Shown here piece after piece: positions 7,676-54,536 of a stretch of DNA of 64,000 bases. The notes beneath the pieces were generated by a model, which was given only the letters and a program-made list of their open reading frames with translations, searched no databases and was not told where the DNA came from. The translations under genes and the position numbers were made by a program. Within the stretch, counting starts at the first letter, position 1; each line of letters opens with the position of its first letter. The stretch is from Alphaproteobacteria bacterium (GTDB taxonomy: Bacteria > Pseudomonadota > Alphaproteobacteria > JAOXRX01). The stretch covers positions 10,006 to 74,005 of the forward strand of contig JAOXRX010000039.1 of assembly GCA_025800285.1 (NCBI GenBank), written 5' to 3'.

Positions 7676-9011
7676 ATATTGCGATACCTTTTACAATTTC
7701 AATAGATCTGTTTAATTGATAATCATCTTTTTTATCACCAGAATTATCTTTGTTTTTAGGGTTTTTATCTTTTTTTTCACCCTTTTCTGGATTTTTAAGA
7801 GCCCCCTTCAAATCAGCTTCTTCTATTAGATATTTCTCCCAATCATTCTCTTTTTCTTTAAGCTCTTCATTTTTAATTTCGATATCTGGATCTATACCAA
7901 GAGCTTGTATAGAGTGTCCACTTGGAGTGTAATATCTTGAAGTTGTCATTTTTACAGCTGTTTTACCATTAACTAAAGGATAGATTGTTTGCACTGACCC
8001 TTTACCGAAAGATTTTGTTCCAACTATTACAGCTCTTTTATGATCCTTAAGAGCACCAGCAACAATTTCTGATGCAGAAGCAGAGCCTTGATTTATAATA
8101 ACAACTATTGGTTTTCCATTTGCTTTATCTCCATTTGCAGCAAAAAACTTCATATTATCAACAGAATCTCTACCTTTTGTTGAAACTATCTCGCCACCAT
8201 CTAAAAATGCTTCTGAAACAGCTATTGCCATAGTTAAAAGCCCTCCAGGGTTATTTCTTAAATCTAAAACATACCCATCAACATTAGCTCCAATTTCATC
8301 AAAAGCGGTTTCTAGCTCTGATTTAGTTTTTTGACTAAAAGTTGCAACTCTTATATATCCAATATTATCTATAACATCGCTTTTTACAGAGTCTATATTA
8401 ATTATATCTCTAACGATTTTAACATCTCTAGGTTCTCCTTTTAAACCTTGACGAACTGTAAGTGTGATATCTGTACCAGGCTCTCCTCTCATTCTATCTA
8501 CTGCATCATTTAAATCTATACCTATAATAGCTTCACCATCCAGATGAGTTATAAAATCACCGGACATAATACCTGCTTTTTGAGCTGGAGTATCATCTAT
8601 AGGAGAAACAACTTTTACAACCTCATCCTCTGTTGTAATTTGAATACCTAAACCACCAAACTTTCCAGAAGTTGAAACTTGCATATCTTCTAGCTCTTTT
8701 TCATCCAAGAAAGATGAGTGAGGATCCAAAGATTTAAGCATACCATCCAAAGACAAATCTATTATCTCTTTATATGTTTTTTCATCTACATATCTTTGTT
8801 TAACAAGAGATAAAACTGCTTCAAACTTTTCAAGTTGTTTATAAGCATCTTGGAGTTCATCATAAGTCATGACCATGCCCTTTGGAGCATTATCTACTTT
8901 TTTTGTTTCTAATTTTTTATTATTTGCTGTTGCATTATAACCGCTAATCATTATAGCGATAAAAAACACGAAAAATCTTTTCATAAAAACTATCCTATCC
9001 CTGAAATTCAT
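7620..9011 (-). CDS. ctpA: carboxyl-terminal processing protease (S41 family)
   Basis: PDZ segment (GGLGIQIT), S41 catalytic region VLDLRNNPGGLL and GSASASEIVAGAL. Confidence 0.9.
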   Translation of the reverse strand: MNFRDRIVFMKRFFVFFIAIMISGYNATANNKKLETKKVDNAPKGMVMTYDELQDAYKQLEKFEAVLSLVKQRYVDEKTYKEIIDLSLDGMLKSLDPHSSFLDEKELEDMQVSTSGKFGGLGIQITTEDEVVKVVSPIDDTPAQKAGIMSGDFITHLDGEAIIGIDLNDAVDRMRGEPGTDITLTVRQGLKGEPRDVKIVRDIINIDSVKSDVIDNIGYIRVATFSQKTKSELETAFDEIGANVDGYVLDLRNNPGGLLTMAIAVSEAFLDGGEIVSTKGRDSVDNMKFFAANGDKANGKPIVVIINQGSASASEIVAGALKDHKRAVIVGTKSFGKGSVQTIYPLVNGKTAVKMTTSRYYTPSGHSIQALGIDPDIEIKNEELKEKENDWEKYLIEEADLKGALKNPEKGEKKDKNPKNKDNSGDKKDDYQLNRSIEIVKGIAIYAKQNDYKEADKKVEDVK

Positions 9012-13460: not shown

Positions 13461-13820
13461 TTAATTTATGATAATACCAATGATATATCCTAGAGTAATT
13501 AGTACAAAATATAATATTCCTAATATAAAGCATGAAAATAATATTGAATATTTTTTAGCCAAAGAGTTTTTATAATTAAAAAACATGGGGATTATTCTTA
13601 TAAAAATTAAAGAATAGATTAGTGTAATTATTATTGTAAAAGTTAATAATATTCTATATTCATTTATAGAATCACATTTTAAACAATATGGATTAATATT
13701 AAATAAATTTAAATTCCAAAAAATAATTTGGCAAATAGATATAATAGCATATCCAACCCAACCCAATATGAATATTGCGTTGGGAATTAACTCACTCTGT
13801 ATTATGTTTTTTATTTTCAT
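13461..13820 (-). CDS. small 4-TM membrane protein, candidate immunity protein for the upstream toxin
   Basis: 119 aa, four hydrophobic helices, starts 4 nt after the stop of the Tlde1-like gene. Confidence 0.45.
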   Translation of the reverse strand: MKIKNIIQSELIPNAIFILGWVGYAIISICQIIFWNLNLFNINPYCLKCDSINEYRILLTFTIIITLIYSLIFIRIIPMFFNYKNSLAKKYSILFSCFILGILYFVLITLGYIIGIIIN

Positions 13821-13823
13821 GTT

Positions 13824-14504
13824 TTAATATCTTACTCTTAATTCTAATTCAGTATCGTATTCTTCAAAAACATCAAGAAACTCAGACATGCTTCCTGCTA
13901 AGTCGATACAACCAGATGAACCAAAGGAAGTTCCGCCATGTATAGAAAAACCATCTCTTCCTTTCATATCATTTTCCTTATCTGGAGTCAACCATATTCT
14001 CTCGTTACCCCAAGAATCTTCTCCACCTGGCCAACTAGTATATCTTTTAATAAAAGAATAATCTTTTCTCCTTTGAACATTACTAGGAGATATCGTGTAG
14101 GTTCCTGCTGGTAAAGGTCCTTTGTTTTTTACCCCAGTAAACTCTTCTCCTTGATAATCTTCTTTTCCAGACATTGCATAACAAGCATCTACAACAGTTT
14201 TATTTTCCATTAAAGCTAAAGCAGTGCCATCAAATGTTAAATAAACTTCTATGTTTTCAATATAGCATTTGCAATTTGGATGAACAGGTAGTTTGGGTAT
14301 GCCTTCAACTTTAGTGTATGTTGTGCCATCAAGTGAAGCACAATTTTCACAAACTTTACTTGTATCGCCTTTAGTATTGTGTATTTTCCACTTTTTAATA
14401 TTTTTACCTGCTTGAGGTGTTTGGTTGGGAGTATCGCTACTGCTTCTAACAGCTCTGCCTGTGGCGTCATAATTTATATTGTCTCTACCGAATGCTCTAG
14501 TCAT
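13824..14504 (-). CDS. polymorphic-toxin-like protein: phage MuF C-terminal remnant (HPNCKC) fused to a Tlde1/DUF2778-like L,D-transpeptidase-fold domain
   Basis: KVCENCASLDGTTYTKVEGIPKLPVHPNCKCY resembles the Phage_Mu_F C-terminal signature; GPLPAGTYTI ... RDGFSIHGGTSFGSSGCIDL matches the YkuD-fold His/Cys catalytic arrangement; own SD aaggag and an upstream terminator. Confidence 0.55.
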   Translation of the reverse strand: MTRAFGRDNINYDATGRAVRSSSDTPNQTPQAGKNIKKWKIHNTKGDTSKVCENCASLDGTTYTKVEGIPKLPVHPNCKCYIENIEVYLTFDGTALALMENKTVVDACYAMSGKEDYQGEEFTGVKNKGPLPAGTYTISPSNVQRRKDYSFIKRYTSWPGGEDSWGNERIWLTPDKENDMKGRDGFSIHGGTSFGSSGCIDLAGSMSEFLDVFEEYDTELELRVRY

Positions 14505-14567: not shown

Positions 14568-15017
14568 TTAAGAAAAATGTACAATCTCAATATCAGTAAA
14601 GTATTTTTGTAAATATTCTGCTAGCAACCTGCGATGGCAATATTTAGGTTTATCTTCATAACACATTAGACAAGCATTATTTAAATTTATATCTTTAAAA
14701 ATATCAATAATATCTCTTTGTTTGATTAAGTCAATATAATCTGTTTCATATTTCTCCCAACGAACAGAAAAAGGAGCATTGCCTCTTTTTATATTCTCAA
14801 ATATTTCAATACTAGGAGCACACTCTATTTTGTGCTTATAATCTATTTTATAATATGCAAGACATTTATATAGTTCTTTCTTGCTCGCATATCCATATTT
14901 AGAGTTTGTATTCTTTAAACGAATATCTATTAAAGATTTTACTCCTGCTTTTTTAAGTAAAGAGAAAAATTCATCAGCTGATTTATTTTCAAAACCTATA
15001 GTGTATAATTTAATCAT
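14568..15017 (-). CDS. DUF488 family protein
   Basis: N-terminal TIG...SLIDIR and C-terminal LMCYEDKPKYCHRRLLAEYL patterns typical of DUF488. Confidence 0.65.
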   Translation of the reverse strand: MIKLYTIGFENKSADEFFSLLKKAGVKSLIDIRLKNTNSKYGYASKKELYKCLAYYKIDYKHKIECAPSIEIFENIKRGNAPFSVRWEKYETDYIDLIKQRDIIDIFKDINLNNACLMCYEDKPKYCHRRLLAEYLQKYFTDIEIVHFS

Positions 15018-15214: not shown

Positions 15215-15482
15215 AGGTACTTTTGACTAGTTTTTACTAACGAGGGTAGCGGGAACCCCAACGAATATCTAGTAACACTAAATAATTTTTGGTTGCCAGT
15301 TACCACCCTCTAGACCTTTGTGGAGTTCAAACACGAGTGGCAACCCAGAGCTTTGGGTTGTCACTCTGCGGAGAGCAATAAAAATATGCCTATTTTTCTA
15401 GACTTTTATAGTGATTTTTAATCGATTATAATTTCTATATTTTAGATATAAAAAAAGCCCTTGAAGCTACAGCTACAGGGCT

Positions 15483-15536
15483 TTTTATAAATGGCGAACT
15501 CGACAGGATTCGAACCTGTGACCTACTGCTTAGAAG
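15483..15536 (-). repeat. direct repeat of the 3' 45 nt of tRNA-Arg plus 9 nt of flank (attR-like remnant)
   Basis: 54 nt identical to 19460-19513; truncated, so not a functional tRNA. Confidence 0.85.
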
Positions 15537-15837
15537 CAGAGACAGCTTTAAAGAAATAAATCAACTAAAACAAAGTCTTAGCTAGACACACAAATCCTTT
15601 CAAAGACACTTTCGTTTTATTAATTGTTGCTAATCATTGCTATTTGTTGCCTATTATTGTCCTCCAGATGCTACCCACTTTGCTACCCATTTTATATACG
15701 ACTAACTGTTATAAAAACAGTCAGTCACAGAAAATTAAAGAAACAAATATACATTAAACAACTCTTTTTAATGCTTAGTATATTTAATATTAAAAAAGAA
15801 GGGCTTTTAAAAGCCCTTCTAAAAACAATAATAAAAT

Positions 15838-16080
15838 CTATTTTTTTATTTTATCACTTTTTTCTCGGTTTGCTTCCCAATGAAGAGGTTGTAAATTTCT
15901 AATATTATTAGAACCACCTTTGGACTTAGGATGCTTATGATCCACTTCCCAACCATACTCACCTAAAGTTCCATATGAAGGTTTTCTAATTTTATTGCCG
16001 TTAGAATCTCTTCTCCAAACATCTGGGTTTTTTCCTCTTATAGGCTTACCTTTATCCCAAATATTGTCTATTTTAGACAT
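15838..16080 (-). CDS. small HNH endonuclease
   Basis: EVDHKHPKSKGGSNNIRNLQPLHWEAN, an HNH motif with conserved His/Asn. Confidence 0.65.
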   Translation of the reverse strand: MSKIDNIWDKGKPIRGKNPDVWRRDSNGNKIRKPSYGTLGEYGWEVDHKHPKSKGGSNNIRNLQPLHWEANREKSDKIKK

Positions 16081-16143
16081 AGTTAAGTTCCCTTTCTTGA
16101 AAATACTTAGTCTAATGGGCAGAATATAATTCTACCCATAGCT

Positions 16144-16392
16144 TTACATAACTCTTTTATAATTATAGATATCTCTTATATGGTTATGAAAAAATTTACC
16201 ATGAGATGATGCATTCATTAAATCTTTAAAAAGATTTTCAGACACACCATAATATTGGTAAACACTATTATTGTGAAAACCAACTTCAAGGATATTTCTA
16301 TCATAACCAATATCATTAATCATAGAAGATTTTACATACTTTCTAGTCATCATGTATCTCCATATTATTGAGCATTTTAACCACACACTCAA
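16144..16392 (-). CDS. KTSC domain-containing protein
   Basis: 82 aa; pattern YDRNILEVGFHNNSVYQYYGVSENLFKDLMNASSHGKFF typical of KTSC domains. Confidence 0.55.
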   Translation of the reverse strand: MSVWLKCSIIWRYMMTRKYVKSSMINDIGYDRNILEVGFHNNSVYQYYGVSENLFKDLMNASSHGKFFHNHIRDIYNYKRVM

Positions 16393-16604
16393 TTATTAAC
16401 TTGACAAGGGTGTATAAGCATGATACTATCAAGTTCTCTCGTCTCGATAGGTTAAACCTTATCATTCGAATTTGAAGTCGCCATGTTAGTAGCATGTCGG
16501 CTTCTTTTAATATTGAAACACAACAAATCTTTCAATATTATTTCTTTATATCACCTTTATATCATTAAGTCAACTATAAAACTATTTTTTTATTAACTGT
16601 TAAC

Positions 16605-16997
16605 CTAACTATTAAGATTAGAAACAACTTTACTGTTTCTTACTTTTTTACTTTCTAAATCTATTTCTATCCAACCCCTCTCATCTATTCTTGTGTCAAA
16701 ATAACTTGTTTTTTCAGGCATTATATTAAAACAATTAAAAAAACTTTTTGCTGCTATATTAGCTCCATAAGCCCCCTTTCTTATTTTAATAGCTCCCTCA
16801 GCTGTTTTATCATTTAACATTTCAATACCTATCTTTTTACATTCTCTATCATAATACAAAACAACATAAGAATAATTATCTATTAAATATTTCTTTCTAG
16901 AACCTTGGTTCAAACCTATATTTCCATTTGTATTTACCGAACACCTCGGAGAAAAACTACCTCCAACTTGTGTAAATTTTTGATAAGCCATAATCAA
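16605..16997 (-). CDS. hypothetical protein (130 aa)
   Basis: ORF co-oriented inside the islet between the methyltransferase and KTSC genes; no recognisable motif. Confidence 0.4.
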   Translation of the reverse strand: MIMAYQKFTQVGGSFSPRCSVNTNGNIGLNQGSRKKYLIDNYSYVVLYYDRECKKIGIEMLNDKTAEGAIKIRKGAYGANIAAKSFFNCFNIMPEKTSYFDTRIDERGWIEIDLESKKVRNSKVVSNLNS

Positions 16998-17097
16998 CCT
17001 CCTTGCAAAATAAAAGACTATAAAAATAGTTATATACTATTTTTATAGTCTTGTCAAGCAGTTTACATCACTTAATACACCCAGTTAATAAACCACA

Positions 17098-18351
17098 CTA
17101 AAACAACTCCCCTTGTTTATCTGTGATAATTTCTTCTTTTTCTATAATCACATCTTCTATATCAAACTTTTTATCTAACATAGCTATTAAACACCTACCT
17201 ATATGATATCCTAAATTAACAGGGACTGCATTGCCTATTTGTTTATATTGAGCACACATAGAACCTTTAAACTCCCAATAATCTGGAAATGTTTGTATTC
17301 TTGCATATTCTCTAACATTTAATGGTCTAGTTTCCTCGGGATGACATCTTTCAGTTTGTTTCTGAGCTGGAGAACAAGTTAAAGTTAAACTAGGTTCATC
17401 CCATGACAACCTTCTAGCCATTCCTGTTCTTCCCCCCGTATGATAAAAACTTTTTCCCATATATTCTTTTTGAACTTCTTCAGGCAAATCTCTCCAACAC
17501 CCTCCTGCAGGAACTTGTTTTAAAACTTTATATTTCTTCTCGGGATATTTTTGTCCTTCAGACTTAGGACAATCTTTTAAAGCTTCCCTCATAGAAATTG
17601 TATAATCTTTTTCTTTTGGAAATATAAAAGGTATATTTAAGTCTTCTCTTATAACTATTATTATCAACCTTTCCCTTTTTTGAGGAACATCTAAATATTG
17701 AGATCTTAATACTTTATAATGAACTTTGTATCCCAATTCCCTTAATGCATTACACATTGTTTTTAATGTTTTACCATTATCATGTCTTAAAAGACCTTTA
17801 ACATTCTCTCCAACCGCAATTTTAGGATTAGTTTCTTTGATACATCTTGCAAATTCAAAAAACAAAGTTCCTCTTGTATCTTCAAACCCCATACTTTTAC
17901 CAGCATAACTAAATGTTTGACAAGGGAATCCTGCTTGCACTATATCAACTTTATTTCTATATTCTTTAAAATCAAGATTTCTAACATCTTCATGAACTAT
18001 GTTAGCATTAGGAAAATTAAATCTTAATGTTTCAACCGCACTTTTATCTATTTCATTTAATAATAAATGATTTAAGCCTGCATTTTCAAATCCTAAAGAA
18101 GTTCCTCCCGCTCCTGCAAAAAGTTCTATTATATTATAGTCTGTTTTTATATTACTTTTTAAAATTTGAAAATTATTATCATTAGAAACTCCATTTAATT
18201 TAGAATTTAATCTTTGCACTTCCTCCAAATCAAAAACTCTATAATTTTTCTCATCTCTTTGAGATTTTATAAGACCTTTTTTATCCCATCTTCTAATTGT
18301 ATCTACAGAGACTTCTAATTCTTCACTTACCTGATGAACTGTTAAATTCAT
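17098..18351 (-). CDS. DNA (cytosine-5)-methyltransferase with an N-terminal MerR-type HTH (SsoII/Eco47II-like architecture)
   Basis: motif I ELFAGAGGTSLGF, motif IV GFPCQTFSYAGK, motif VI VGENVKGLL; N-terminal 45 aa form an HTH (VSVDTIRRWDKKGLI). Confidence 0.85.
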   Translation of the reverse strand: MNLTVHQVSEELEVSVDTIRRWDKKGLIKSQRDEKNYRVFDLEEVQRLNSKLNGVSNDNNFQILKSNIKTDYNIIELFAGAGGTSLGFENAGLNHLLLNEIDKSAVETLRFNFPNANIVHEDVRNLDFKEYRNKVDIVQAGFPCQTFSYAGKSMGFEDTRGTLFFEFARCIKETNPKIAVGENVKGLLRHDNGKTLKTMCNALRELGYKVHYKVLRSQYLDVPQKRERLIIIVIREDLNIPFIFPKEKDYTISMREALKDCPKSEGQKYPEKKYKVLKQVPAGGCWRDLPEEVQKEYMGKSFYHTGGRTGMARRLSWDEPSLTLTCSPAQKQTERCHPEETRPLNVREYARIQTFPDYWEFKGSMCAQYKQIGNAVPVNLGYHIGRCLIAMLDKKFDIEDVIIEKEEIITDKQGELF

Positions 18352-18448
18352 TATTTCAACTCCTTTAAAAAATAAAATTCATTACTATAAATTATATATA
18401 GCAATACCCATTGCATAATGCAAGGGTTATTTTATATTTTTATAAATT

Positions 18449-19171
18449 TTATTGAAATGCTCTATCAAAAAGCTCTTTAAACAAAGGGTCTTTAATGATT
18501 TTCTTTTTATCATTTTTAACTATATCAGATATTATATGAGGCAAAACATTGTATAAGTCATAGATAGCATTCTTATCTCCAGTTGCTATTTCATAAAAAG
18601 TAGCTCCATCAATTTCTCTAATATTTTTATTCTTAGGTCTTCTTTTCCCTGCTTTTCTATTATCAGATGGAGTAAATTCTTTATCAAATCTCTTTTTAGT
18701 TAATATGGCAACATAATAAGCAACATATCCTTCATATTTAGACTTAGTTAGAGATTTTAAATCATCATATATTGCAACTTTATGATTACCTTTTGTAGTG
18801 TTAAATTTATTTTTAATTTCAGCTATAATTTTTTTATCTTTATTTACTAAATCTGCCACTCCTCCAGTTTTTAAGTCTTTCCAACCAATTACTCTTCCTA
18901 GAATCTTTTGATGAAAATTGCCAATAGCATTCTGCAAACTTTTTTGGATTTGTCTTGATTTTTCAGTAGCTAACCATTCTTCTAAAGACATCTTATGAAA
19001 AGAAGCATCAAATAAAGCAGAAAAAGGATCTACAATATTAGAATGCAAATCTTTTTCTATATCTTTAGATTTAACTTCTAAAACATCAACTATCTCCTGA
19101 CATAATTCATATAAATCTTTTTCACTAATCCATTTAAGTTTTTTCATAAATAACCACCTTAATTTAAACAT
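18449..19171 (-). CDS. putative type II restriction endonuclease (PD-(D/E)xK), partner of the adjacent methyltransferase
   Basis: GGVADLV ... IIAEIKNK gives a D...EIK nuclease core; immediately upstream of the methyltransferase in the same orientation; gene sizes (240/417 aa) resemble Eco47II/Sau96I-type systems. Confidence 0.5.
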   Translation of the reverse strand: MFKLRWLFMKKLKWISEKDLYELCQEIVDVLEVKSKDIEKDLHSNIVDPFSALFDASFHKMSLEEWLATEKSRQIQKSLQNAIGNFHQKILGRVIGWKDLKTGGVADLVNKDKKIIAEIKNKFNTTKGNHKVAIYDDLKSLTKSKYEGYVAYYVAILTKKRFDKEFTPSDNRKAGKRRPKNKNIREIDGATFYEIATGDKNAIYDLYNVLPHIISDIVKNDKKKIIKDPLFKELFDRAFQ

Positions 19172-19468
19172 ACTTATGTGTTTATCACTATATATTTAAA
19201 AAATCAAGTTTTTTAATTGCACCAATTTTGCACTATGACTGACTGATAGTTTTTCAGATAACCTGCAACAGCTAACACATTAAAATATAACAATATTATT
19301 GTAACATACTGCCATAATAAATTATATTTTTGAAAAAAACATCGTTGAAAGCTACTGTCACAAAGAGTTTGCAAGTTTGCTACCCACCTATAAAATCACT
19401 ATTTTTTAAACTTAAATTTAAACAAATAAAAAACCCGTCAAAGCTAGTGCTGACGGGGTTTTATAAAT

Positions 19469-19545
19469 GGCGAACTCGACAGGATTCGAACCTGTGACCT
19501 ACTGCTTAGAAGGCAGTTGCTCTATCCAGCTGAGCTACGAGTCCT
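19469..19545 (-). tRNA. tRNA-Arg (anticodon TCT)
   Basis: 77 nt cloverleaf folded by hand; anticodon loop cttctaa; CCA encoded; followed by a terminator hairpin. Confidence 0.85.
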
Positions 19546-19566
19546 CTTGCCGTTATTAGTTCAAAT

Positions 19567-19644
19567 GGTCGGGATAGCAGGATTCGAACCTACGACCCCT
19601 TGTACCCAAAACAAGTGCGCTAGCCAGACTGCGCCATATCCCGA
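19567..19644 (-). tRNA. tRNA-Pro (anticodon TGG)
   Basis: 78 nt cloverleaf; anticodon loop tttgggt; T-loop ttcgaat; CCA encoded. Confidence 0.8.
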
Positions 19645-19774: not shown

Positions 19775-20491
19775 TTAATTAATTCCTTTATACATTTCCA
19801 TTAATGCTTTTTTTCTAGCTTGTAATTTAACAGGAGCTTTTTTCTCTTCCAGACTTACCTCATCATGACCCTGATTTTTATCTGAGAATTTATCTCTTAT
19901 ATACATCTCTGCTTTATATATATTACTATCTATAAAGTCAACTATATCTCTACTAGTCTCTCTAGGGCCATACATTAAAAAAGCCAACCCAGCCCCTAAA
20001 GAAGTTGTTGTAATAGATGTAAACCTTAAAGTCCTTCTAACACCCTCTTTGGCAAGCTCTATTTTACGAAGCTTTTTACCTCTTACCATATAATCTTCAG
20101 ACAATTTATCTTTTGATGTAACTTGAGCTGCAAAATCATGCAACTCTATATTTTTAACATTAGGATCCTTAACAGCAGATATAATTGCTTGATAACCACC
20201 TAAAATACTTCTATAGTAGCACTCTTTATTTCTTTTGTGTTTATAATACCTTCTTAGCACTATTTTCTTTGGTTTTAATAATGCTTTACCCAAAATAGAT
20301 TTTTTTCTATATTTAGATAAAAAATTAGCATATTTACCATGCCATTTCGTAGCAATTTCATTAGTATAAGCATATAAATAAAGATACTTCTCATCTATAG
20401 TACCATCAAATTTAGGTTTTAATCTTTTTCTAAAAAATAAATTAAGAGAACGAAAGCCTCTCCATGTTTTACCTATTACTTTACCTATCAT
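19775..20491 (-). CDS. hypothetical basic protein (238 aa)
   Basis: ORF only; K/R-rich; no family recognised. Confidence 0.4.
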   Translation of the reverse strand: MIGKVIGKTWRGFRSLNLFFRKRLKPKFDGTIDEKYLYLYAYTNEIATKWHGKYANFLSKYRKKSILGKALLKPKKIVLRRYYKHKRNKECYYRSILGGYQAIISAVKDPNVKNIELHDFAAQVTSKDKLSEDYMVRGKKLRKIELAKEGVRRTLRFTSITTTSLGAGLAFLMYGPRETSRDIVDFIDSNIYKAEMYIRDKFSDKNQGHDEVSLEEKKAPVKLQARKKALMEMYKGIN

Positions 20492-20652
20492 AAATCATCC
20501 TCTTAATATTGTTGAACCAAGTACTTTACATATCAAATATTATCATATATATTCTTTGAATGCAATATATTTATAATAATTATTCAATAAAATAAGAAAA
20601 AGCTTGACATAGTTATTTAAAAGATAGATAATGAAGTTACAGAACAAATATT

Positions 20653-21078
20653 TTGGGAGAAGATATTATGGATTATGTACAAAGAGACTCAAGAGAGGTT
20701 TGCAGTAGAGTTGAAGCCCACACTAATAACTTAGGAGGATTCCTGGATGCTTTTGCTGTACTTTACCTTGCATCTTTAAAAGCGATAGCTTATACAGCAA
20801 TATTTTATATTAAAAGGCCAAAAACTTTTTATCACCATGCGCTGTTTGCATCCACCTGTTTTTTAGGTTCACAATTTGCATCTAGTGGAGCGACAGATTT
20901 ATTGGCTGATAAATTTATAGAATACAAAAGATCTAAGTATGTTAAAAGCTGTTTAAAAACACCAGAAAACACAAACAAAAAAGATATTATAAAAAAATTT
21001 AGAGAAACAGTAAAAAAAGAAAATGCTTCAATAACAACAAAAAAACAAAGACCTACAAATTTAACAGCAAGCATTTAA
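20653..21078 (+). CDS. hypothetical protein (141 aa)
   Basis: ORF only; one hydrophobic segment; basic C-terminus. Confidence 0.35.
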   Translation: MGEDIMDYVQRDSREVCSRVEAHTNNLGGFLDAFAVLYLASLKAIAYTAIFYIKRPKTFYHHALFASTCFLGSQFASSGATDLLADKFIEYKRSKYVKSCLKTPENTNKKDIIKKFRETVKKENASITTKKQRPTNLTASI

Positions 21079-21162
21079 TATAATTAACATTACTCTATAG
21101 CAAAAAAAGAAGCTTTATATACATAAAAAGCTTCTTTTTTTTTATGACAAAACACACTTCAA

Positions 21163-22419
21163 TTAATCATTAGAAATATTTTTAAAAATATTTAAAACCC
21201 CCTTGACTCTACCATCATTAATTCTAGGTCTAGAGTCAATATTATTATCAACAGATGCAATATATTTAGGAATTACATTTACAATACTACTTTTTAATTT
21301 GTCTAAACCGCCCCACTTATCATACTTACTAATATTCACCCCTGAATAACCAAGACTTACATATAAATTATTTTCCCCATTAGTTTCTTTTATAAATAAA
21401 GAAGAGCTTTTAACATTAGACCTCTTATTATAAGAATTATACATAACAACATTATCTATAACAGGAAGACCTCTAGTATCATTGTATAAATTCAAAGTTT
21501 CCTTTAAGAAAAATGGATAAAGATCTTTTGGATTTACAACACTCAATGCTTCATCAATATCATCTATAGCCTTAAAATATTTTTCATTAAATGGATCGTA
21601 TAATTCTAAATTAATCATATTAATATTAGCTAACATCTCTTTACTTTGCCTTGAATCTATAGAACTTTTTTTAACCAATATAGAAAAGTCTTTCCACATA
21701 GGACTTTCAAAATAAGATTTCAAAAACCCCCTACCATTATCATTACGATCAGACTGGAAAGCATCTAAGGGACTAACTTTTACCTCCTCAAAATATATAA
21801 TTAATGTTTTATCTTTAAGATTTGATACAATCCTATTTAAACCAGACACAGCATCATTTACTTCTTTCTTTGATAACGCATCCATTTCAGTTTTTGAAAC
21901 GGTTTCCATATACTCTTCATAATTAAAAAATACTTTTGGCAAATTAGTTTTATTTTTTATACCAATCCCTGTTGTTACTAACCAGCCTGAAAGAGCCCCT
22001 CCCAAAACCAAACAAGTTGTATTTTTTAACCAATTCTTAACACTATTTAAAGCTTTGTCCCCATCTTTTCTATCACCAAGCATTTTAGAGTATATAGAAT
22101 TTCTATGCTTTTTGAATCTTTTCAAAAAGATTCTCAAAGAATTACTTCTGTCTTTCCCCTGTTCTAAATCCTTAATTAAAATATTCTCTATACAACTATT
22201 GGTTTTTCTGACATGATCACAAGTATCTTTAAAACAATCAAAAGAAATCTGATTACCGCACTTAAAAACATCTTCAATATTATAAAGATTAACTATATCC
22301 TCTGTTTTTAAGACCTCCGCCTTGTTTAAAGTTTTGTTTACAGATTGCACTTTAAAGTTAGAAATCGACATATTACCCCCTTTAAAAATCATTTTTTTAC
22401 TTTTATAAGTATAACACAC
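21163..22419 (-). CDS. hypothetical protein (418 aa) with one predicted TM helix
   Basis: ORF only; sits next to the large membrane protein; no family recognised. Confidence 0.45.
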   Translation of the reverse strand: MCYTYKSKKMIFKGGNMSISNFKVQSVNKTLNKAEVLKTEDIVNLYNIEDVFKCGNQISFDCFKDTCDHVRKTNSCIENILIKDLEQGKDRSNSLRIFLKRFKKHRNSIYSKMLGDRKDGDKALNSVKNWLKNTTCLVLGGALSGWLVTTGIGIKNKTNLPKVFFNYEEYMETVSKTEMDALSKKEVNDAVSGLNRIVSNLKDKTLIIYFEEVKVSPLDAFQSDRNDNGRGFLKSYFESPMWKDFSILVKKSSIDSRQSKEMLANINMINLELYDPFNEKYFKAIDDIDEALSVVNPKDLYPFFLKETLNLYNDTRGLPVIDNVVMYNSYNKRSNVKSSSLFIKETNGENNLYVSLGYSGVNISKYDKWGGLDKLKSSIVNVIPKYIASVDNNIDSRPRINDGRVKGVLNIFKNISND

Positions 22420-22528
22420 GGAAAAACTAATTTCAAGCGCAAATTAAAATAATAAAAAAAACCTTGCAAATTAAAATACATAAGTGCTATGATTTAAAAA
22501 AATAATATTTTCAGGAGAATAATTACAA

Positions 22529-25500
22529 ATGCTATCAAGTAAGAAAAAGACAAGATTTACTAAAAAGAAAATATCTAAAAAAATATTTATGCCAGAGTTT
22601 AACCGAAGCTTTTTACCTATAAAAATATCTATAGACTCTTTTGTTAGATTAATAGCAGGGATTTTCTCTCATGCGGGTTTATTAGACGAGGAAGATGATT
22701 TATTTAACACAAACCAATTATTAACATTTTCTGATTTTGGAGAAATGATTTTTGTTTCAGCAAAAAATATTAACTGGAGGAGTAAGAAATCAATACCACA
22801 AATTTGCTTATGGTTATCTTCAATTGCCTTAGTTATTTTTGTTTTATCAACACTACTTATCTTACTGTTTTCTTTAGCTACAGGAACTGCTAATGCAGCA
22901 TTAGCAATGGCTCAAGAAAACACAGGGGAGGATGTTAGCTCTTTATTTACATTAACTGAAGAGGTTGCTAAACATGAACATGGAACAACATGGTTAAACT
23001 GGATGTTTAATTTAGCTGGAGAATATAAACCTGCTGTGTTTGGTGAGGGAGGAACTGCTGCCAAACCAGGTATTGCCTTAGGATTTCAATCTATGCTTAC
23101 ATATTATAGTTCTACTTGTTTAATATTAGGCTCTATAATGGTTTCTTATTTATTTGTTGACAATATTGTTGACACAGCATCAACAGGTAAATTCATGGGG
23201 CAAGGCGATGAAGTATGGGCATATCCTAGAATACTAATAGCTATGTGTTTATTAGTACCTCTACCTAATGGCTCTGGTTTAAATATAGGTCAAAATCTTA
23301 TTATATCAATTTCTAAAGCGGGGTCAATTTTTGCAACAAATACATGGTTAGCTTTTCTAAAAAACTTAGGTGGCGAAGAAGGTAATGATTTAATATCTCC
23401 TGAAAGCTTTGATTTAGATAGTTTATCAAAAAATATGTTTGATTCATTTGTTTGTTATTGGGGAACTGCTATAGGTAATAAACTTCAAATTACTGACAAT
23501 AAAGATGGTATACCTCCTCATAAAACAAATGAGATAAAAAAAGAAAAAAGTGAATTATCAAAAGAAATACAATCCTTAAATGGTAAAATTGGCGGCGACT
23601 GTGAAATAGTTCCTTATAATAATGGGAAAATATCATCTTATTGGTATAAAGGAGATTGGAATGATTATACAAAAGAAGCTAGAAAAGAAGAATGTGAAGA
23701 TGATTTTTCGGATCCTAATGATTTCAGAATTACAGAACTTAAAGATATAATAAAGAAGGCAGACAACATTGGGTCAAAAGAATTAATGTTAGAACAAATG
23801 TATGGAGGACTAGAAAACCCAACTTCGATTAAGATTACAAAAGCTTCAAAAGCAGATTCTTTATCTTATGACTTTAATCTTGGTTCAGGTAGCAATGCTA
23901 TTACAATGGCTGGAGCTTGTGGTTCTTATGGACCTGCATTTTTCCAACAAGAATTTGAAGAAAAAGATGCAACTAGAGATTGCATATCAGAGAATCCTCA
24001 TGACTTAAACAACTTAATAACTTGTACGGAAGCAAAAATGCAAGCTAATGTAAAAAAAGGATTTTTAGCAGCTTTAAACAAAGAAAATGTTTTTGGATTT
24101 ATATCTGACACTTCTGAAGAAGCTGCGACATCACAATTTCAAATACCTAGTGTCCCTAAAGGAGGTATTGATGCTTATGTTGTAAACAAATCTGTAAAAT
24201 TAATTTCTGAGAAAAATTTTAAAAATGAAAAGTATAAAAAAGCCATAAAAGCAGCAAAAATAACTCCCCCTACACCAAACAGTTTATCAAGTTATGCTTA
24301 TGATTTTGTCCTTGCATCTTTATACTCAGATAAAAGTGGTAAAAATTTTATACCAAAAGGAATTGAACCTCTTAATTATAAAAACTTTGAAGACTCTTTA
24401 GATCTTATTAAAGATAATACTATATCTCTTCAGTCAGAAGAATATGGAAAACGCTTTAGTGAAAATATGGCTCCATACTTTAAAATAGCCAACGAATCTT
24501 TTAGAGATTTAAATTCTCATCTATTTGGTAATGCCAAAGAAAACAAAAAACCTGCAGAAACCGATATAGCTAATCAGATGCAAAAAGGATGGATAGCAGC
24601 TGGGGCTTTTTATTCTCTATTATCTCAAATAAACGGATTAGGTATAAAAGCAACAAGTGCAAGCTATGCTTACTCTTCCCCTATCTCATCTTTTACAGGT
24701 AGTCGTTCTATAAAAATAGATACATATTCATCTGATAAGATGACTGGATTCATACCTTATCTTGACTATATATTAACAAAAAAAGATCTTATTATTGGCA
24801 ATATAGAGAAAAAAACAACAGGAATAAGCTCAACAGATGAAAGCTCCAGCATGGGATCAAATGTTGCCATGTTAGCTGACATAATGAATACTGCTACTGG
24901 TTTAGCAGGAGCTAGTATTACAAATATAAATGGCGCTAATCCCTTCGCAGACTTAGTTAACCTTGGGCATTTATTAATAAATACAGCAACCTATACTAAA
25001 ATTTTAACTACCATGAAAGCTGAAACATATAAATCTATAGGTAACCTTCTTGCTAAAATTGGTGGAGCAATACCATATGGAGCTGGTATTGGCTCAGTAT
25101 TAGCATCTAAAATACCTAGCTATAAAGGGGAAATCATAAAGCAATTGGCTATACCTTTAAACATATTTCAAGGTATGATATTTAGTTTTGGTATAACTCT
25201 AGCCTATTATTTACCTTTGGTTCCTTTTATAAAGTTTATAATGGGAGGTATAGGATGGTTCGCTGCTGTCTTCCAAGCAGTAATTGGAACTCCTTTACTT
25301 TTATTAGGACATATAACTGTAAAAAAAGGTAGCATGATACTTGGACCAGACAGAGGTAAATACATGATGATTCTTGAAATATTCTTAAGGCCTGTTTTAA
25401 TGGTATTTGGCATGATAGGATCAATGCTACTACTATCTGTTGCAACATATATATTTAATGACTTATATAACTTTGCTTGGGGTGTTAGAAGCATGAATAG

Positions 25501-26068
25501 TGTTTGGGGAGGGTCAATACTATCTTTTGCCTCATATTTTAAAGGTCTAGCATATATAAGTATATATGTAACTACAATATACACTATAGCTACAAACTGC
25601 TTCAAACTTATAGATGATGTACCAGGTAAAGTCATAAGTTGGATGGGTGGCGGAGCCGGATATTCATTGAGCGGTGCTGAAGATGCTGTAGAACAAGGCG
25701 CTGGAAGTGCTGGTAAGTTCATAGAAAAAAGTATTGATGCATCAAGACAAAAATCATTAGATGATGAACAAACTAATAAGAAAAAGAATATTGCAAGAGA
25801 TGACAGAATTAAAGATACTATTGTAAAACATGGATCCGAAAAAGGAAATATGTTAGCCGATATGGAAGAAGGGAAATACGATGCAAATAAAGGTGAGTAT
25901 GTTGACATGTCAGATCAAGAGAAAAAAGAAGCTAAACAAAGGCTTGAAGATCATAGATCTGGTGGCGACCCTTATGGTATTAGAGCTAAAGAAAACGCTT
26001 CTACTTCCTCAACTGGGTTGAATCAGGACGGTAATATGAATATTGAGCCTCCTAAAAAAGACTCTTAA
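22529..26068 (+). CDS. large polytopic inner-membrane protein, possibly T4SS-associated (VirB6/TrbL-like or DotA/TraY-like architecture)
   Basis: 1179 aa; N-terminal TM helices, roughly 500 aa hydrophilic middle domain, C-terminal cluster of 5-6 TM helices (residues ~830-1010), charged tail; family call is by architecture only. Confidence 0.4.
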   Translation: MLSSKKKTRFTKKKISKKIFMPEFNRSFLPIKISIDSFVRLIAGIFSHAGLLDEEDDLFNTNQLLTFSDFGEMIFVSAKNINWRSKKSIPQICLWLSSIALVIFVLSTLLILLFSLATGTANAALAMAQENTGEDVSSLFTLTEEVAKHEHGTTWLNWMFNLAGEYKPAVFGEGGTAAKPGIALGFQSMLTYYSSTCLILGSIMVSYLFVDNIVDTASTGKFMGQGDEVWAYPRILIAMCLLVPLPNGSGLNIGQNLIISISKAGSIFATNTWLAFLKNLGGEEGNDLISPESFDLDSLSKNMFDSFVCYWGTAIGNKLQITDNKDGIPPHKTNEIKKEKSELSKEIQSLNGKIGGDCEIVPYNNGKISSYWYKGDWNDYTKEARKEECEDDFSDPNDFRITELKDIIKKADNIGSKELMLEQMYGGLENPTSIKITKASKADSLSYDFNLGSGSNAITMAGACGSYGPAFFQQEFEEKDATRDCISENPHDLNNLITCTEAKMQANVKKGFLAALNKENVFGFISDTSEEAATSQFQIPSVPKGGIDAYVVNKSVKLISEKNFKNEKYKKAIKAAKITPPTPNSLSSYAYDFVLASLYSDKSGKNFIPKGIEPLNYKNFEDSLDLIKDNTISLQSEEYGKRFSENMAPYFKIANESFRDLNSHLFGNAKENKKPAETDIANQMQKGWIAAGAFYSLLSQINGLGIKATSASYAYSSPISSFTGSRSIKIDTYSSDKMTGFIPYLDYILTKKDLIIGNIEKKTTGISSTDESSSMGSNVAMLADIMNTATGLAGASITNINGANPFADLVNLGHLLINTATYTKILTTMKAETYKSIGNLLAKIGGAIPYGAGIGSVLASKIPSYKGEIIKQLAIPLNIFQGMIFSFGITLAYYLPLVPFIKFIMGGIGWFAAVFQAVIGTPLLLLGHITVKKGSMILGPDRGKYMMILEIFLRPVLMVFGMIGSMLLLSVATYIFNDLYNFAWGVRSMNSVWGGSILSFASYFKGLAYISIYVTTIYTIATNCFKLIDDVPGKVISWMGGGAGYSLSGAEDAVEQGAGSAGKFIEKSIDASRQKSLDDEQTNKKKNIARDDRIKDTIVKHGSEKGNMLADMEEGKYDANKGEYVDMSDQEKKEAKQRLEDHRSGGDPYGIRAKENASTSSTGLNQDGNMNIEPPKKDS

Positions 26069-53734: not shown

Positions 53735-53808
53735 TGGGATGTAGCCAAGCGGTAAGGCAACCGGTTTTGATCCGGTCATGCGCAGGTTCGAATCCTGCCA
53801 TCCCAACC
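53735..53808 (+). tRNA. tRNA-Gln (anticodon TTG)
   Basis: 74 nt; D-arm GCCAAGCGGTAAGGCA identical to E. coli tRNA-Gln; anticodon loop ttttgat; CCA encoded. Confidence 0.85.
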
Positions 53809-53965
53809 AATAAATAAAAGAGTCCAGCATTCGCTGGGCTTTTTTGTTTATTATTTGAATGATAGTTATTTGAACCGTTAAAGGTTCGGCAAAAAGATTA
53901 GCTTTCAACAAGGTTGAAAGGTTAGCGTTTGAAACTTTCGCAGACACACAGTGTCGCACGAAAGA

Positions 53966-54029: not shown

Positions 54030-54536
54030 TTATTTATTTTTCATATAGCTATATGATATTGAATCTATTTGGCATAGAAAAAAGATTGTATTGATATTAT
54101 CAATTTTAATATTTCTTATTTCTTCTACTTTTATATTAAGTTCTTTTTCAAACCATTGAGCAACGAGATGTCTATGACAAAACTCTCCTTCTTTTTCATA
54201 ACAGAGCAATATAGCATCACTACCAAGTTCTTTAAAAACCTTTGTAGCATCTAGAGGAGCTAGAATTTCTTCTTTAAACCTTTTTATATATCTTTGAACA
54301 TCTCCAGTTTTTCTATATTCTTTATATATACTCCAAGAAGGAGCAAGCTTTTTATACTCCCTGCCCTTATAAGCATCGGGGCTACATCCAGATATAGAAA
54401 CTGCATTTATATTATTACCATGTTTTGCAAAATTAGATGTTTTCATAAAATGAAATATATCATATATTAAACTTATACAATCATAAATTTGACTTTTAGC
54501 TAAAATTGTTATAACATTAATTACATATAAAAACAA
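54030..54536 (-). CDS. DUF488 family protein (YeaO-like); likely true start near 54446
   Basis: AILLCYEKEGEFCHRHLVAQWF and SPDAYKGREYKKLAPSWSIYKEY match YeaO/DUF488 patterns. Confidence 0.6.
   Translation of the reverse strand: MFLYVINVITILAKSQIYDCISLIYDIFHFMKTSNFAKHGNNINAVSISGCSPDAYKGREYKKLAPSWSIYKEYRKTGDVQRYIKRFKEEILAPLDATKVFKELGSDAILLCYEKEGEFCHRHLVAQWFEKELNIKVEEIRNIKIDNINTIFFLCQIDSISYSYMKNK

What the first reader, a model, noticed from the sequence alone, without database searches (positions are those of the whole stretch)
15483..19545. Integrase-less islet at tRNA-Arg bounded by a 54-nt direct repeat, carrying an HTH-methyltransferase/PD-(D/E)xK R-M pair plus KTSC and HNH genes
Nucleotides 19460-19513 (the 3' 45 nt of tRNA-Arg plus ttttataaa) are repeated exactly at 15483-15536. 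Each copy is followed by its own terminator hairpin. This is the attL/attR footprint of a tRNA-targeted integrative element, but no integrase is present. The five cargo genes are all co-oriented, like an operon: a 240-aa protein with a D ... EIK nuclease core, a C5-methyltransferase with an N-terminal MerR/SsoII-type autoregulatory HTH, a 130-aa unknown, a KTSC protein and an 80-aa HNH nuclease. The 240/417-aa size pair resembles Eco47II/Sau96I (GGNCC) systems. The association of an R-M pair with KTSC, HNH and an unknown gene could be a composite defence module rather than a plain R-M.
Basis: partly seen in the sequence, partly recalled or inferred. Interest (0 to 1): 0.7.

Follow-up and report, generated by a model that had tools for sequence, protein, structure and literature searches.

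The report
Integrase-less restriction-modification islet at tRNA-Arg
A 3.9-kb piece of foreign DNA sits in the end of a tRNA-Arg gene of an uncultured AT-rich alphaproteobacterium; it carries an ordinary Eco47II-type restriction-modification gene pair and three unrelated small genes, keeps both attachment sites but has no integrase, so it is a decayed or hitch-hiking island, not a new defence system.

Summary
The repeat runs from the first base of the tRNA-Arg(UCU) anticodon loop to the tRNA 3' end plus 9 nt, which is the classic footprint of tyrosine-integrase integration.

No recombinase lies in the islet, in the 64-kb window or in 10 kb beyond its right end.

The 232/417-aa pair is an Eco47II-family PD-(D/E)XK endonuclease plus an m5C methyltransferase with an N-terminal MerR-type HTH. 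A palindromic operator upstream of the methyltransferase is conserved in 60 of 64 related cassettes.

The "composite defence module" idea is not supported. Of 86 other loci with this endonuclease family, none has the 128-aa, KTSC or HNH gene nearby, and each of these genes occurs elsewhere in unrelated contexts.

Related cassettes do ride in tRNA islands that carry integrases (L130, L160, L091).

The two non-coding arms share rare motifs in a nested, attP-like layout. I therefore read the islet as a cis-mobilisable (CIME-like) or recently decayed integrative islet stabilised by its R-M pair.

It is a new member of known kinds and of modest interest. No empty site could be checked, because no close relative exists in the searched collections.

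The parts
15446..15492 (-). Original (chromosomal) terminator hairpin and T-run downstream of the displaced tRNA-Arg 3' half
   Evidence: Inverted repeat with arms 15446-15461 and 15477-15492, 88% complementary. It is weakly similar to the hairpin that follows the intact tRNA: alignment score 11, against -8.8 +/- 4.7 and a maximum of 8 for shuffles.
15483..15536 (-). Distal direct repeat (attR-like): displaced copy of tRNA-Arg positions 33-77 plus 9 nt
   Evidence: 54/54 identical to 19459-19512. No third copy in the window.
15537..15837 (.). Left non-coding arm. Holds tandem TGCTACCCA boxes (15669-15692), a 21-nt box GACTAACTGTTATAAAAACAG (15700-15720) and the HNH terminator (15797-15820).
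   Evidence: GCTACCCA occurs only 3 times in 64 kb, all in the two arms. The arms share 7 G/C-containing 8-mers, against 0.42 +/- 0.9 for random segment pairs; fraction reaching the observed value 0.0003. Terminator. Folding z-score -3.65.
15838..16080 (-). 80-aa stand-alone HNH nuclease gene
   Evidence: Pfam HNH, E 2.7e-8. Member of a widespread 80-85-aa family with 65-77% identity, found in unrelated contexts.
16144..16350 (-). 68-aa KTSC-domain gene (the ORF is open up to 16392)
   Evidence: Pfam KTSC, E 7.8e-21. Matches phage families of unknown function. Gene call of 68 aa in the Logan contig.
16605..16991 (-). 128-aa protein of an unannotated family; probable DNA-binding beta-barrel protein (MraZ/B3-like fold, weak)
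17014..17058 (-). Perfect 17-bp inverted repeat (17014-17052) preceded by TTGACA (17053-17058). Terminator of the R-M unit and/or promoter-operator of the 128-aa gene.
   Evidence: Inverted repeat I17, 100% complementary. Terminator-like site. The TTGACA box is read directly from the sequence.
17098..18351 (-). 417-aa C5-cytosine DNA methyltransferase with N-terminal MerR-type HTH
   Evidence: Pfam DNA_methylase, residues 72-387, E 1.9e-89; MerR/MerR_1, residues 4-49, E 3.4e-11. PADLOC MTase_II. 81 of the 88 loci searched (two of them this islet itself) carry a homologue of it; R->M order confirmed in 79.
18404..18430 (-). Palindromic operator ATAACCCTTGCAT-T-ATGCAATGGGTAT, just upstream of a TATAAT-like box and the MTase start
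   Evidence: The same palindrome (at most 5 substitutions) is present in 60 of 64 distinct R-M intergenic regions, a median of 43 nt before the MTase start. The match count (154 on both strands, about two per cassette locus) suggests few if any lie elsewhere in 0.83 Mb of loci, both strands; positions outside the intergenic regions were not checked.
18449..19147 (-). 232-aa Eco47II-family PD-(D/E)XK restriction endonuclease (the ORF is open up to 19171)
   Evidence: Pfam RE_Eco47II, 191.5 bits against a cutoff of 25.9. PADLOC REase_II. NCBI names the identical protein 'Eco47II family restriction endonuclease'. D99, E110 and K112 are invariant.
19172..19458 (.). Right non-coding arm. Holds the 21-nt box GACTGACTGATAGTTTTTCAG (19237-19257), a TTTGCTACCCA box (19376-19386) and the element-borne tRNA terminator (19434-19457). 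It also holds the REase promoter region.
19459..19512 (-). Proximal direct repeat (attL-like), forming the 3' part of the intact tRNA-Arg plus 9 nt
   Evidence: The boundary falls at tRNA position 33, the first base of the anticodon loop.
19468..19544 (-). Intact tRNA-Arg(UCU), the integration target
   Evidence: ARAGORN. Rfam tRNA, 71.6 bits.

Best explanation
The islet (15537-19458, with one repeat copy 3,976 bp) is the product of site-specific, tyrosine-integrase-type integration into the 3' half of tRNA-Arg(UCU). It has no recombinase of its own. It is therefore either a cis-mobilisable (CIME-like) hitch-hiker that needs an integrase supplied by another element, or a recently decayed integrative island.

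Shown:
- The identity block runs exactly from the anticodon loop to the tRNA 3' end plus 9 nt.
- The tRNA is regenerated and the old 3' half is displaced 3.9 kb away, next to its own terminator.
- Both non-coding arms carry rare shared motifs. If the islet is circularised they form a nested layout of about 460 bp: GACT-box .. GCTACCCA .. core .. GCTACCCA x2 .. GACT-box.

Inferred:
- The shared motifs are arm-type or accessory-protein binding sites of an attP.

Cargo module 1 is a self-contained Eco47II-type Type II R-M cassette in the order R then M.
- By family membership, the endonuclease should cut unmethylated GGNCC and the m5C methyltransferase should protect that site.
- The methyltransferase's N-terminal MerR-type HTH most likely binds the conserved palindrome just upstream of its own gene and autoregulates. 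This is inferred from conservation and from the SsoII/Ecl18kI precedent.
- As established for Type II R-M systems, loss of the cassette would expose the chromosome to restriction. This would stabilise the islet even without an integrase.

Cargo module 2 (128-aa protein, KTSC, HNH) appears to be a separate transcription unit of phage-like small genes. It has no detectable functional tie to the R-M pair.
For: - Repeat geometry and significance.
- Separate terminators.
- No recombinase in about 74 kb; no remnant by tblastn.
- Arm motifs. GCTACCCA occurs 3 times in 64 kb, only in the arms. An exact CAGTCAGTCA pair is present. The arms share 7 G/C-containing 8-mers against 0.42 in random pairs, fraction 0.0003.
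- Related Eco47II-type cassettes are cargo of tRNA islands that do have integrases. L130 is at tRNA-Met with a 47-nt 3' repeat, two tyrosine integrases, an Xis-like HTH and a primase. L160 is at tRNA-Met with an adjacent integrase. L091 is near tRNA-Asn with tyrosine and serine recombinases.
- The R-M cassette is conserved as a two-gene unit: 81 of the 88 loci searched carry the MTase, 79 confirmed in R->M order. The operator is conserved in 60 of 64.
- All five genes are intact, and the 54/54 identity of the non-functional repeat copy argues for a recent event.
- Literature. [quoted passage not shown]
Against: - No empty site, excised circle or cognate integrase could be shown. The tRNA 31/32-mer has no exact match in the genome, viral or metagenome collections. 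The best MnmE relatives are only about 50% identical.
- The arm motifs are few and their role is inferred. One GACT-box lies just upstream of the candidate REase promoter and could be an ordinary operator.
- GC content and codon usage of the islet equal the host's (cosine 0.959). Composition therefore gives no independent sign of foreign origin.
- The k=31 Logan graph of the same sample is equally compatible with an integrated islet and with a circle plus an empty site.
Confidence: 0.7

Rival explanations
1. R-M-driven 'insertion with long target duplication'. The R-M-bearing segment inserted without any site-specific recombinase and duplicated 54 bp of target, as described for R-M units in Helicobacter, Haemophilus, Neisseria and others.
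For: It meets the operational criteria of PMC2853133. R and M are both inside the insert, the insert is under 20 kb, the duplication exceeds 30 bp and there is no integrase or transposase inside.
Against: - The duplicated block starts exactly at the anticodon loop and ends just past the tRNA 3' end. PMC2853133 itself treats that pattern as the mark of site-specific recombination.
- The sequence just 3' of the two repeat copies differs (a different hairpin), so the element brought its own tRNA 3' end rather than copying the target.
- The arms carry shared rare motifs.
- The closest R-M relatives show no flanking duplications.
Confidence: 0.08
2. The five genes form one composite anti-phage system in which KTSC, HNH and the 128-aa protein cooperate with the R-M pair.
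For: The genes are co-oriented and tightly bounded by the repeats. HNH nucleases and DNA-binding proteins are common parts of defence systems.
Against: - None of the 86 other Eco47II-family loci has any of the three genes nearby.
- There are no PADLOC hits for the three genes.
- HNH homologues stand alone after an ATP-synthase operon or beside unrelated genes.
- Homologues of the 128-aa protein sit beside a GIY-YIG gene or in clusters of small ORFs.
- A terminator-like hairpin and a promoter-like box separate the two modules.
Confidence: 0.04
3. Assembly artefact. The islet is really a free circular element (plasmid-like or excised form) that the MAG assembler threaded into the chromosome through the shared 54-nt sequence.
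For: In the k=31 Logan assembly of the same run the islet is a separate 3,982-bp contig. The flanks are separate contigs, each ending 30 nt inside the repeat. That graph cannot tell integrated from circle plus empty site.
Against: - The islet has no replication gene.
- The MAG contig spans both junctions.
- A 54-nt repeat is shorter than normal read length, so standard assemblers with k above 54 resolve it from reads. This last point is inference; the reads were not examined.
Confidence: 0.05

Closest known systems
Eco47II-family Type II restriction-modification systems (PF09553 REase plus C5-MTase; Eco47II and its homologues assigned to GGNCC)
   Same: - The REase matches PF09553 end to end (191.5 bits) with the PD-(D/E)XK residues conserved. 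The family is assigned to PD-(D/E)XK in PMC3424549.
- An m5C MTase lies adjacent.
- The two-gene cassette R then M recurs in 81 of the 88 loci searched.
- Eco47II homologues are treated as GGNCC enzymes (PMC10305163).
   Different: - The closest known protein is 69% identical.
- Specificity is untested; GGNCC avoidance in the window is equivocal.
- Here the cassette lies in a repeat-bounded tRNA islet.
SsoII/Ecl18kI-type R-M regulation by the methyltransferase's N-terminal DNA-binding region
   Same: - An N-terminal region of about 70 aa with an HTH precedes the MTase domain, which starts at residue 72 here. In M.SsoII the split is 1-71 / 72-379 (PMC3978073).
- A palindromic operator lies in the R/M non-coding region (PMC2760811).
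   Different: - Genes are in tandem (R then M), not divergent.
- The HTH is of MerR type.
- The operator sequence AACCCTTGCAT-N-ATGCAAGGGTT belongs to this family.
- Binding and regulation were not tested.
Cis-mobilisable elements (CIMEs) left by decay of ICEs/IMEs
   Same: Bounded by intact attL/attR-like repeats at the 3' end of a tRNA gene, and lacks integration and transfer genes (definition in PMC5704250 and PMC6323972).
   Different: - CIMEs were defined in Firmicutes in relation to known ICEs with the same att sites.
- Here no parent or helper element is known and no accretion partner is present.
- The host is an uncultured AT-rich alphaproteobacterium.
R-M units with an integrase inserted in a tRNA gene (Furuta et al. 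2010), and the islands L130, L160 and L091 found here
   Same: An R-M cassette as cargo next to a tRNA, flanked by a direct repeat of the tRNA 3' part (PMC2853133).
   Different: Those carry tyrosine (and in L091 also serine) recombinases, and in L130 an Xis-like HTH and a primase. This islet carries none and is only 3.9 kb.

Membership tests
Eco47II-family Type II R-M | REase matches PF09553 above the curated threshold over the full length | tested here: met
   191.5 bits against 25.9; profile positions 1-201 of 202.
Eco47II-family Type II R-M | PD-(D/E)XK catalytic residues conserved | tested here: met
   D99, E110 and K112 (AEIK) are invariant in 24 homologues. Fold assignment of the family: PMC3424549.
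Eco47II-family Type II R-M | Adjacent cognate C5-cytosine methyltransferase | tested here: met
   PF00145, E 1.9e-89. 81 of the 88 loci searched carry a homologue; R->M order confirmed in 79.
Eco47II-family Type II R-M | Recognition and cleavage of GGNCC and matching methylation | tested here: inconclusive
   GGNCC: 18 observed against 43 expected (first-order model, the lowest of 16 SSNSS words), but O/E 0.87 against the maximal-order model. There are 0 sites in the islet. Enzymology is not testable here.
SsoII/Ecl18kI-type MTase-autoregulated R-M | N-terminal HTH region fused to the MTase | tested here: met
   MerR/MerR_1 at residues 4-49; MTase domain from residue 72.
SsoII/Ecl18kI-type MTase-autoregulated R-M | Palindromic operator in the R/M non-coding region | tested here: met
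   60 of 64 distinct intergenic regions carry AACCCTTGCAT-N-ATGCAAGGGTT. Window copy at 18404-18430.
SsoII/Ecl18kI-type MTase-autoregulated R-M | Divergently arranged R and M genes sharing the regulatory region | tested here: not met
   R and M are in tandem on the same strand.
SsoII/Ecl18kI-type MTase-autoregulated R-M | MTase binds the operator and regulates transcription | not testable with these tools
   Needs EMSA or reporter assays.
tRNA-integrating tyrosine-recombinase element (genomic island / IME / prophage) | Direct repeats made of the tRNA segment from the anticodon loop to the 3' end; tRNA regenerated | tested here: met
   The repeat covers tRNA positions 33-77 plus 9 nt. The intact tRNA scores 71.6 bits.
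tRNA-integrating tyrosine-recombinase element (genomic island / IME / prophage) | Element-encoded integrase | tested here: not met
   All five genes are assigned to other families. No remnant by tblastn. None in the window.
tRNA-integrating tyrosine-recombinase element (genomic island / IME / prophage) | Empty target site in related genomes | not testable with these tools
   No exact match of the tRNA 31/32-mer in the genome, viral or metagenome collections. The closest MnmE is about 50% identical.
CIME (cis-mobilisable element) | Retains attL and attR | tested here: met
   54/54 identical repeats. The arms carry shared rare motifs.
CIME (cis-mobilisable element) | Lacks integration and transfer genes | tested here: met
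CIME (cis-mobilisable element) | Can be excised or mobilised by a related ICE/IME integrase (helper of the same att specificity) | not testable with these tools
   No helper in about 74 kb examined. The rest of the genome is not available.
R-M insertion with long target duplication (Furuta et al. 2010) | R and M inside an insert under 20 kb, flanked by a duplication over 30 bp, with no mobility gene | tested here: met
   Criteria from PMC2853133.
R-M insertion with long target duplication (Furuta et al. 2010) | The repeat is not a tRNA attachment-type segment, and the duplicated flank is a true copy of the target | tested here: not met
   The repeat is the anticodon-loop-to-3'-end segment. The sequence just 3' of the two copies differs, with a different hairpin.
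Composite defence system (R-M + 128-aa + KTSC + HNH) | Recurrent co-occurrence of the components in other genomes | tested here: not met
   None of the 86 other REase loci. HNH and 128-aa homologues lie in unrelated contexts.

The most novel reading that the evidence does not exclude
The islet is a live, integrase-free hitch-hiker. Its roughly 460-bp attP-like region (GACT-box .. GCTACCCA .. core .. GCTACCCA x2 .. GACT-box) would be recognised by the integrase of an unseen helper element that targets the same tRNA-Arg.

Its own 128-aa MraZ-like protein would bind the TGGGTAGC direct repeats as an architectural or directionality factor. MraZ proteins are known to bind arrays of direct repeats (PMC8475190).

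The R-M pair would enforce retention between moves. That would make it a minimal selfish unit: att sites, an addiction module and one DNA-binding protein.
Probability: 0.15. Interest if true: 0.5.

Novelty: new member of a known kind. Interest (0 to 1): 0.27.

Why it matters
The islet is a clean, very small example of how a Type II R-M cassette can persist in a tRNA integration site after, or without, its recombinase, in a poorly sampled host-associated alphaproteobacterial lineage.

Two by-products may be useful beyond this locus.
- A conserved palindromic operator (AACCCTTGCAT-N-ATGCAAGGGTT) was found for the whole family of Eco47II-type cassettes with MerR-HTH methyltransferases. It gives a testable regulatory model.
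- The 128-aa protein belongs to a sizeable family (about 1,400 representative clusters) that no domain library covers.

None of this changes current concepts. It removes a candidate "new composite defence system" from the list.

Tried and rejected
- Empty-site or relatives search. An exact scan of the tRNA 31/32-mer in genome contigs, viral contigs and metagenome contigs found nothing. Exact-protein look-ups of both flanking genes returned only contigs of the same sample, broken at the repeat.
- Co-occurrence of KTSC, HNH and the 128-aa gene with the R-M pair: none in the 86 other loci. Viral-contig scans for the three proteins were empty.
- Integrase remnants. tblastn with five recombinases from related islands gave only noise. 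The best hit, E 0.029, lies in an unrelated ORF at 47247-47516.
- Vsr as the usual companion of m5C systems: present next to only 5 of 88 cassettes and absent here. There is therefore no basis for reading the HNH as a Vsr substitute.
- Long target duplications around the closest R-M relatives: none.
- Sequence-level links of the 128-aa family or the REase to solved structures: none. Longer family members carry no Pfam domain. The afdb50 fold library was unavailable.
- Rfam on the islet: only the two tRNAs. All other matches fall far below the gathering scores.
- Composition as evidence of foreign origin: not informative, because the islet matches the host.
- Plasmids and phages. The REase family is on 9 of 72,556 plasmids (at most 52% identity) and on no phage record.

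Full report
OBSERVATION

The window holds an exact 54-nt direct repeat at 15483-15536 and 19459-19512. A 31-mer from the repeat has just these two matches in 64 kb, even with three mismatches allowed, and none in 100 shuffles.

ARAGORN and Rfam place tRNA-Arg(TCT) at 19468-19544 on the minus strand, next to tRNA-Pro(TGG) at 19566-19643. Writing out the tRNA shows where the repeat sits. It begins at tRNA position 33, the first base of the anticodon loop. It runs through the CCA end (45 nt) and continues 9 nt further.

Each copy is followed, in the tRNA's direction, by its own hairpin and T-run. These are 19457->19434 and 15446-15461/15477-15492. The two hairpin regions are weakly similar: alignment score 11, against -8.8 +/- 4.7 and a maximum of 8 for shuffles. 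The sequences on the other side of the repeat are unrelated.

This is the expected geometry if an element carrying its own copy of a tRNA-Arg 3' end and terminator recombined with the chromosomal tRNA in or near the anticodon loop. The intact tRNA now ends in element DNA. The displaced original 3' half sits 3.9 kb away, in front of the original terminator.

CONTENT OF THE ISLET

Five minus-strand genes lie between the repeats.

- 18449-19147 encodes a 232-aa Eco47II-family restriction endonuclease. Pfam PF09553 scores 191.5 bits against a cutoff of 25.9, and PADLOC gives REase_II. NCBI names the identical MAG protein the same way. In an alignment of 24 homologues, D99, E110 and K112 (AEIK) are invariant. 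This agrees with the PD-(D/E)XK assignment of the family (PMC3424549).
- 17098-18351 encodes a 417-aa C5-cytosine methyltransferase. The methylase domain spans residues 72-387 and a MerR-type HTH spans residues 4-49.
- 16605-16991 encodes a 128-aa protein with no hit in Pfam, PADLOC, PHROGs or NCBIfam.
- 16144-16350 encodes a KTSC-domain protein.
- 15838-16080 encodes an 80-aa HNH nuclease.

The genes are co-oriented but probably not one operon. A perfect 17-bp inverted repeat (17014-17052), preceded by TTGACA, separates the methyltransferase from the 128-aa gene. A further 254 nt separate that gene from KTSC. A strong terminator follows HNH (15820->15797).

THE R-M PAIR IS A SELF-CONTAINED, WIDESPREAD CASSETTE

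The endonuclease has 867 homologues at E <= 1e-10. The closest is 69% identical and comes from another alphaproteobacterial MAG.

I collected 88 loci with a family member, from exact-protein look-ups and a metagenome scan. Two of the 88 are this islet itself.

- 81 of the 88 carry a homologue of the methyltransferase.
- The R->M order on one strand was confirmed in 79 loci.
- In the neighbourhoods inspected, the flanking genes differ from locus to locus.

In the R-M intergenic region, 60 of 64 distinct sequences carry the palindrome AACCCTTGCAT-N(0-3)-ATGCAAGGGTT with at most 5 substitutions. It lies a median of 43 nt before the methyltransferase start and usually just upstream of a TATAAT box. 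The pattern gave 154 matches on both strands across 0.83 Mb of loci (both strands), about two per cassette locus. This suggests few if any lie outside the intergenic regions, but that was not checked directly. The window's copy is at 18404-18430.

In M.SsoII the N-terminal region 1-71 regulates and the MTase domain is 72-379 (PMC3978073). In Ecl18kI the operator lies between the genes (PMC2760811). The genes here are in tandem rather than divergent, and binding is untested.

Specificity is inferred only from family membership; Eco47II homologues are treated as GGNCC enzymes (PMC10305163). GGNCC is the most depleted of the 16 SSNSS words against a first-order model (18 observed, 43 expected). 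Against the maximal-order model O/E is 0.87, and CCNGG is similarly low. The site-avoidance test is therefore inconclusive.

THE COMPOSITE DEFENCE MODULE IS NOT SUPPORTED

None of the 86 other loci has a homologue of the 128-aa, KTSC or HNH gene in the sequence held, which extends up to 10 kb on each side. The other evidence points the same way.

- HNH. It belongs to a very conserved family of stand-alone 80-85-aa proteins with 65-77% identity. Members sit after an ATP-synthase operon or beside a second HNH and a transposase. The JGI label "McrA" is the generic COG name.
- 128-aa protein. It has few close relatives, but a profile search finds 1,405 representative clusters. None of the ten longer members tested has a Pfam domain. 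Its neighbours elsewhere are a small GIY-YIG gene or a run of small ORFs.
- KTSC. It matches phage families of unknown function.

The left half of the islet thus looks like a phage-type leftover or moron module, not a partner of the R-M pair. Vsr, the usual companion of m5C systems, is next to only 5 of 88 cassettes and is absent here.

NO INTEGRASE, BUT att-LIKE ARMS

Pfam annotation covered nearly all ORFs of at least 100 aa across the window, plus 10 kb beyond its right end. It finds housekeeping genes, one DDE (rve) transposase at 56707-57699, and no tyrosine or serine recombinase. tblastn with five recombinases from related islands finds no remnant.

The two non-coding arms (15537-15837 and 19172-19458) share rare sequence.

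- GCTACCCA occurs three times in 64 kb, all in the arms and all in one orientation. Two copies are in tandem at 15670-15689 and one is at 19379-19386. The expected count is 0.62, and no shuffle of 100 reached 3.
- A 21-nt box containing the exact 10-mer CAGTCAGTCA or its complement lies at 15700-15720 and 19237-19257.
- The arms share seven 8-mers with at least 4 G/C. Random pairs of segments share 0.42 +/- 0.9, and a fraction of 0.0003 reach the observed value.

If the islet is circularised, the order is GACT-box, GCTACCCA, 54-nt core, GCTACCCA x2, GACT-box, over about 460 bp. That nested layout is what arm-type and accessory-factor sites of an attP look like. This is inference and not shown.

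PRECEDENT AMONG RELATIVES

Twelve of the 88 loci have a tRNA within 6 kb. Three of them are real islands that carry recombinases.

- L130 has a tRNA-Met whose last 47 nt are repeated 11 kb away. Between the copies lie Vsr, R, M, two tyrosine integrases, an Xis-like HTH and a Toprim/AAA primase.
- L160 has an integrase right next to a tRNA-Met and a partial repeat 10.6 kb away.
- L091/L094 carry the cassette with a tyrosine and a large serine recombinase next to tRNA-Asn.

Eco47II-type cassettes are thus recurrent cargo of tRNA-integrating elements. The present islet is the same thing without the recombination genes.

The literature already describes the neighbouring categories.

- R-M units with an integrase inserted in a tRNA gene (PMC2853133).
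- Duplication of the anticodon-loop-to-3'-end segment as the normal outcome of such integration (same paper).
- CIMEs, which are elements that have lost integration and transfer genes but keep attL and attR (PMC5704250, PMC6323972).

MECHANISM AND RIVALS

My best reading (confidence about 0.7) is a CIME-like or recently decayed integrative islet.

- It entered by integrase-mediated recombination at tRNA-Arg.
- It depends on an integrase in trans or has lost its own.
- It is held in place by the post-segregational effect of its R-M pair.

The perfect identity of the non-functional repeat copy and the intact state of all five genes argue for a recent event. The host-like GC content and codon usage (cosine 0.959) mean the donor was compositionally similar or the DNA has had time to adapt.

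Rival 1 is recombinase-free "insertion with long target duplication". It fits the operational criteria of PMC2853133, but three things contradict it. The repeat boundary is tRNA-specific. The two hairpins next to the repeat copies differ. The closest cassettes lack such duplications.

Rival 2 is the composite defence system. It fails the co-occurrence test.

Rival 3 is an assembly artefact.

- In the k=31 Logan assembly of the same run the islet is a separate 3,982-bp contig, and the flanking contigs each end 30 nt into the repeat.
- That graph does not distinguish integrated from circular.
- The islet has no replication gene and the MAG contig spans both junctions.
- Read mapping would settle this and would also reveal any excision.

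LIMITS

The host is an uncultured alphaproteobacterium with 30.5% GC. The tRNA-Arg 31/32-mer has no exact match in any collection searched.

VERDICT

The R-M reading is correct. The defence-module reading is not supported. The locus is a new member of known kinds: an Eco47II-type R-M cassette on a CIME-like tRNA islet. Interest is modest (0.27).

Noticed in passing
window 18404-18430, and loci L086-L173: A palindromic operator, AACCCTTGCAT-N-ATGCAAGGGTT, followed by a TATAAT box, is conserved upstream of the MerR-HTH m5C methyltransferase in 60 of 64 distinct Eco47II-type cassettes from very different metagenomes. I did not find it described in the papers I searched, and I did not search for it specifically.
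   Followed up: partly
window 16605-16991: The 128-aa protein belongs to a family of about 1,400 representative clusters (492 at E <= 1e-10) that no Pfam, PHROG, NCBIfam or PADLOC model covers. The predicted fold is weakly MraZ/B3-like and resembles phage KSY1 gp105.
   Followed up: partly
window 15215-15385: A G+C-rich, strongly structured non-coding stretch lies just outside the islet, between a 50-aa ORF and the displaced tRNA half. It includes a perfect 14-bp hairpin. The folding z-score is about -3 on either strand and there is no Rfam match.
   Followed up: partly
window 14568-15017 and 54030-54536: Two DUF488 genes each sit immediately downstream of a tRNA gene: the original tRNA-Arg 3' end, and tRNA-Gln at 53735-53809. 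The first matches the PADLOC candidate PDC-M45C (E 1.9e-41). Both tRNA flanks may be small variable or defence hot spots.
   Followed up: no
window 13461-14504: A 226-aa protein with a Tlde1/YkuD-like L,D-transpeptidase toxin domain and a weak Phage_Mu_F-like N-terminus is followed by a 119-aa membrane protein (likely immunity). It looks like a polymorphic-toxin pair next to a MORN-repeat protein.
   Followed up: no
window 7957-8261: An Rfam match to Rickettsia sRNA47 (RF02800) scores 61.1 bits, just above the gathering score of 60. It lies inside the coding region of the S41 peptidase gene and is probably a coding-sequence match rather than an sRNA.
   Followed up: no
window 19775-26068: A run of ORFs with no Pfam domain (238, 141, 418 and 1179 aa) lies directly on the other side of the tRNA-Pro/tRNA-Arg pair. 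They are lineage-specific genes of unknown function.
   Followed up: no
window 48674-50050: A single 458-aa ORF fuses an RNase PH domain with a Ham1/RdgB (non-canonical NTP pyrophosphatase) domain. These are usually two neighbouring genes.
   Followed up: no
window 56707-57699: A 330-aa DDE (rve) transposase is the only mobility gene found in the window.
   Followed up: no
L130 9285-20553: An 11-kb island at tRNA-Met is bounded by a 47-nt repeat of the tRNA 3' part. It carries Vsr, an Eco47II-type R-M pair, two tyrosine integrases, an Xis-like HTH and a Toprim/AAA primase. It is a P4-like satellite or IME with the same R-M family as cargo.
   Followed up: partly
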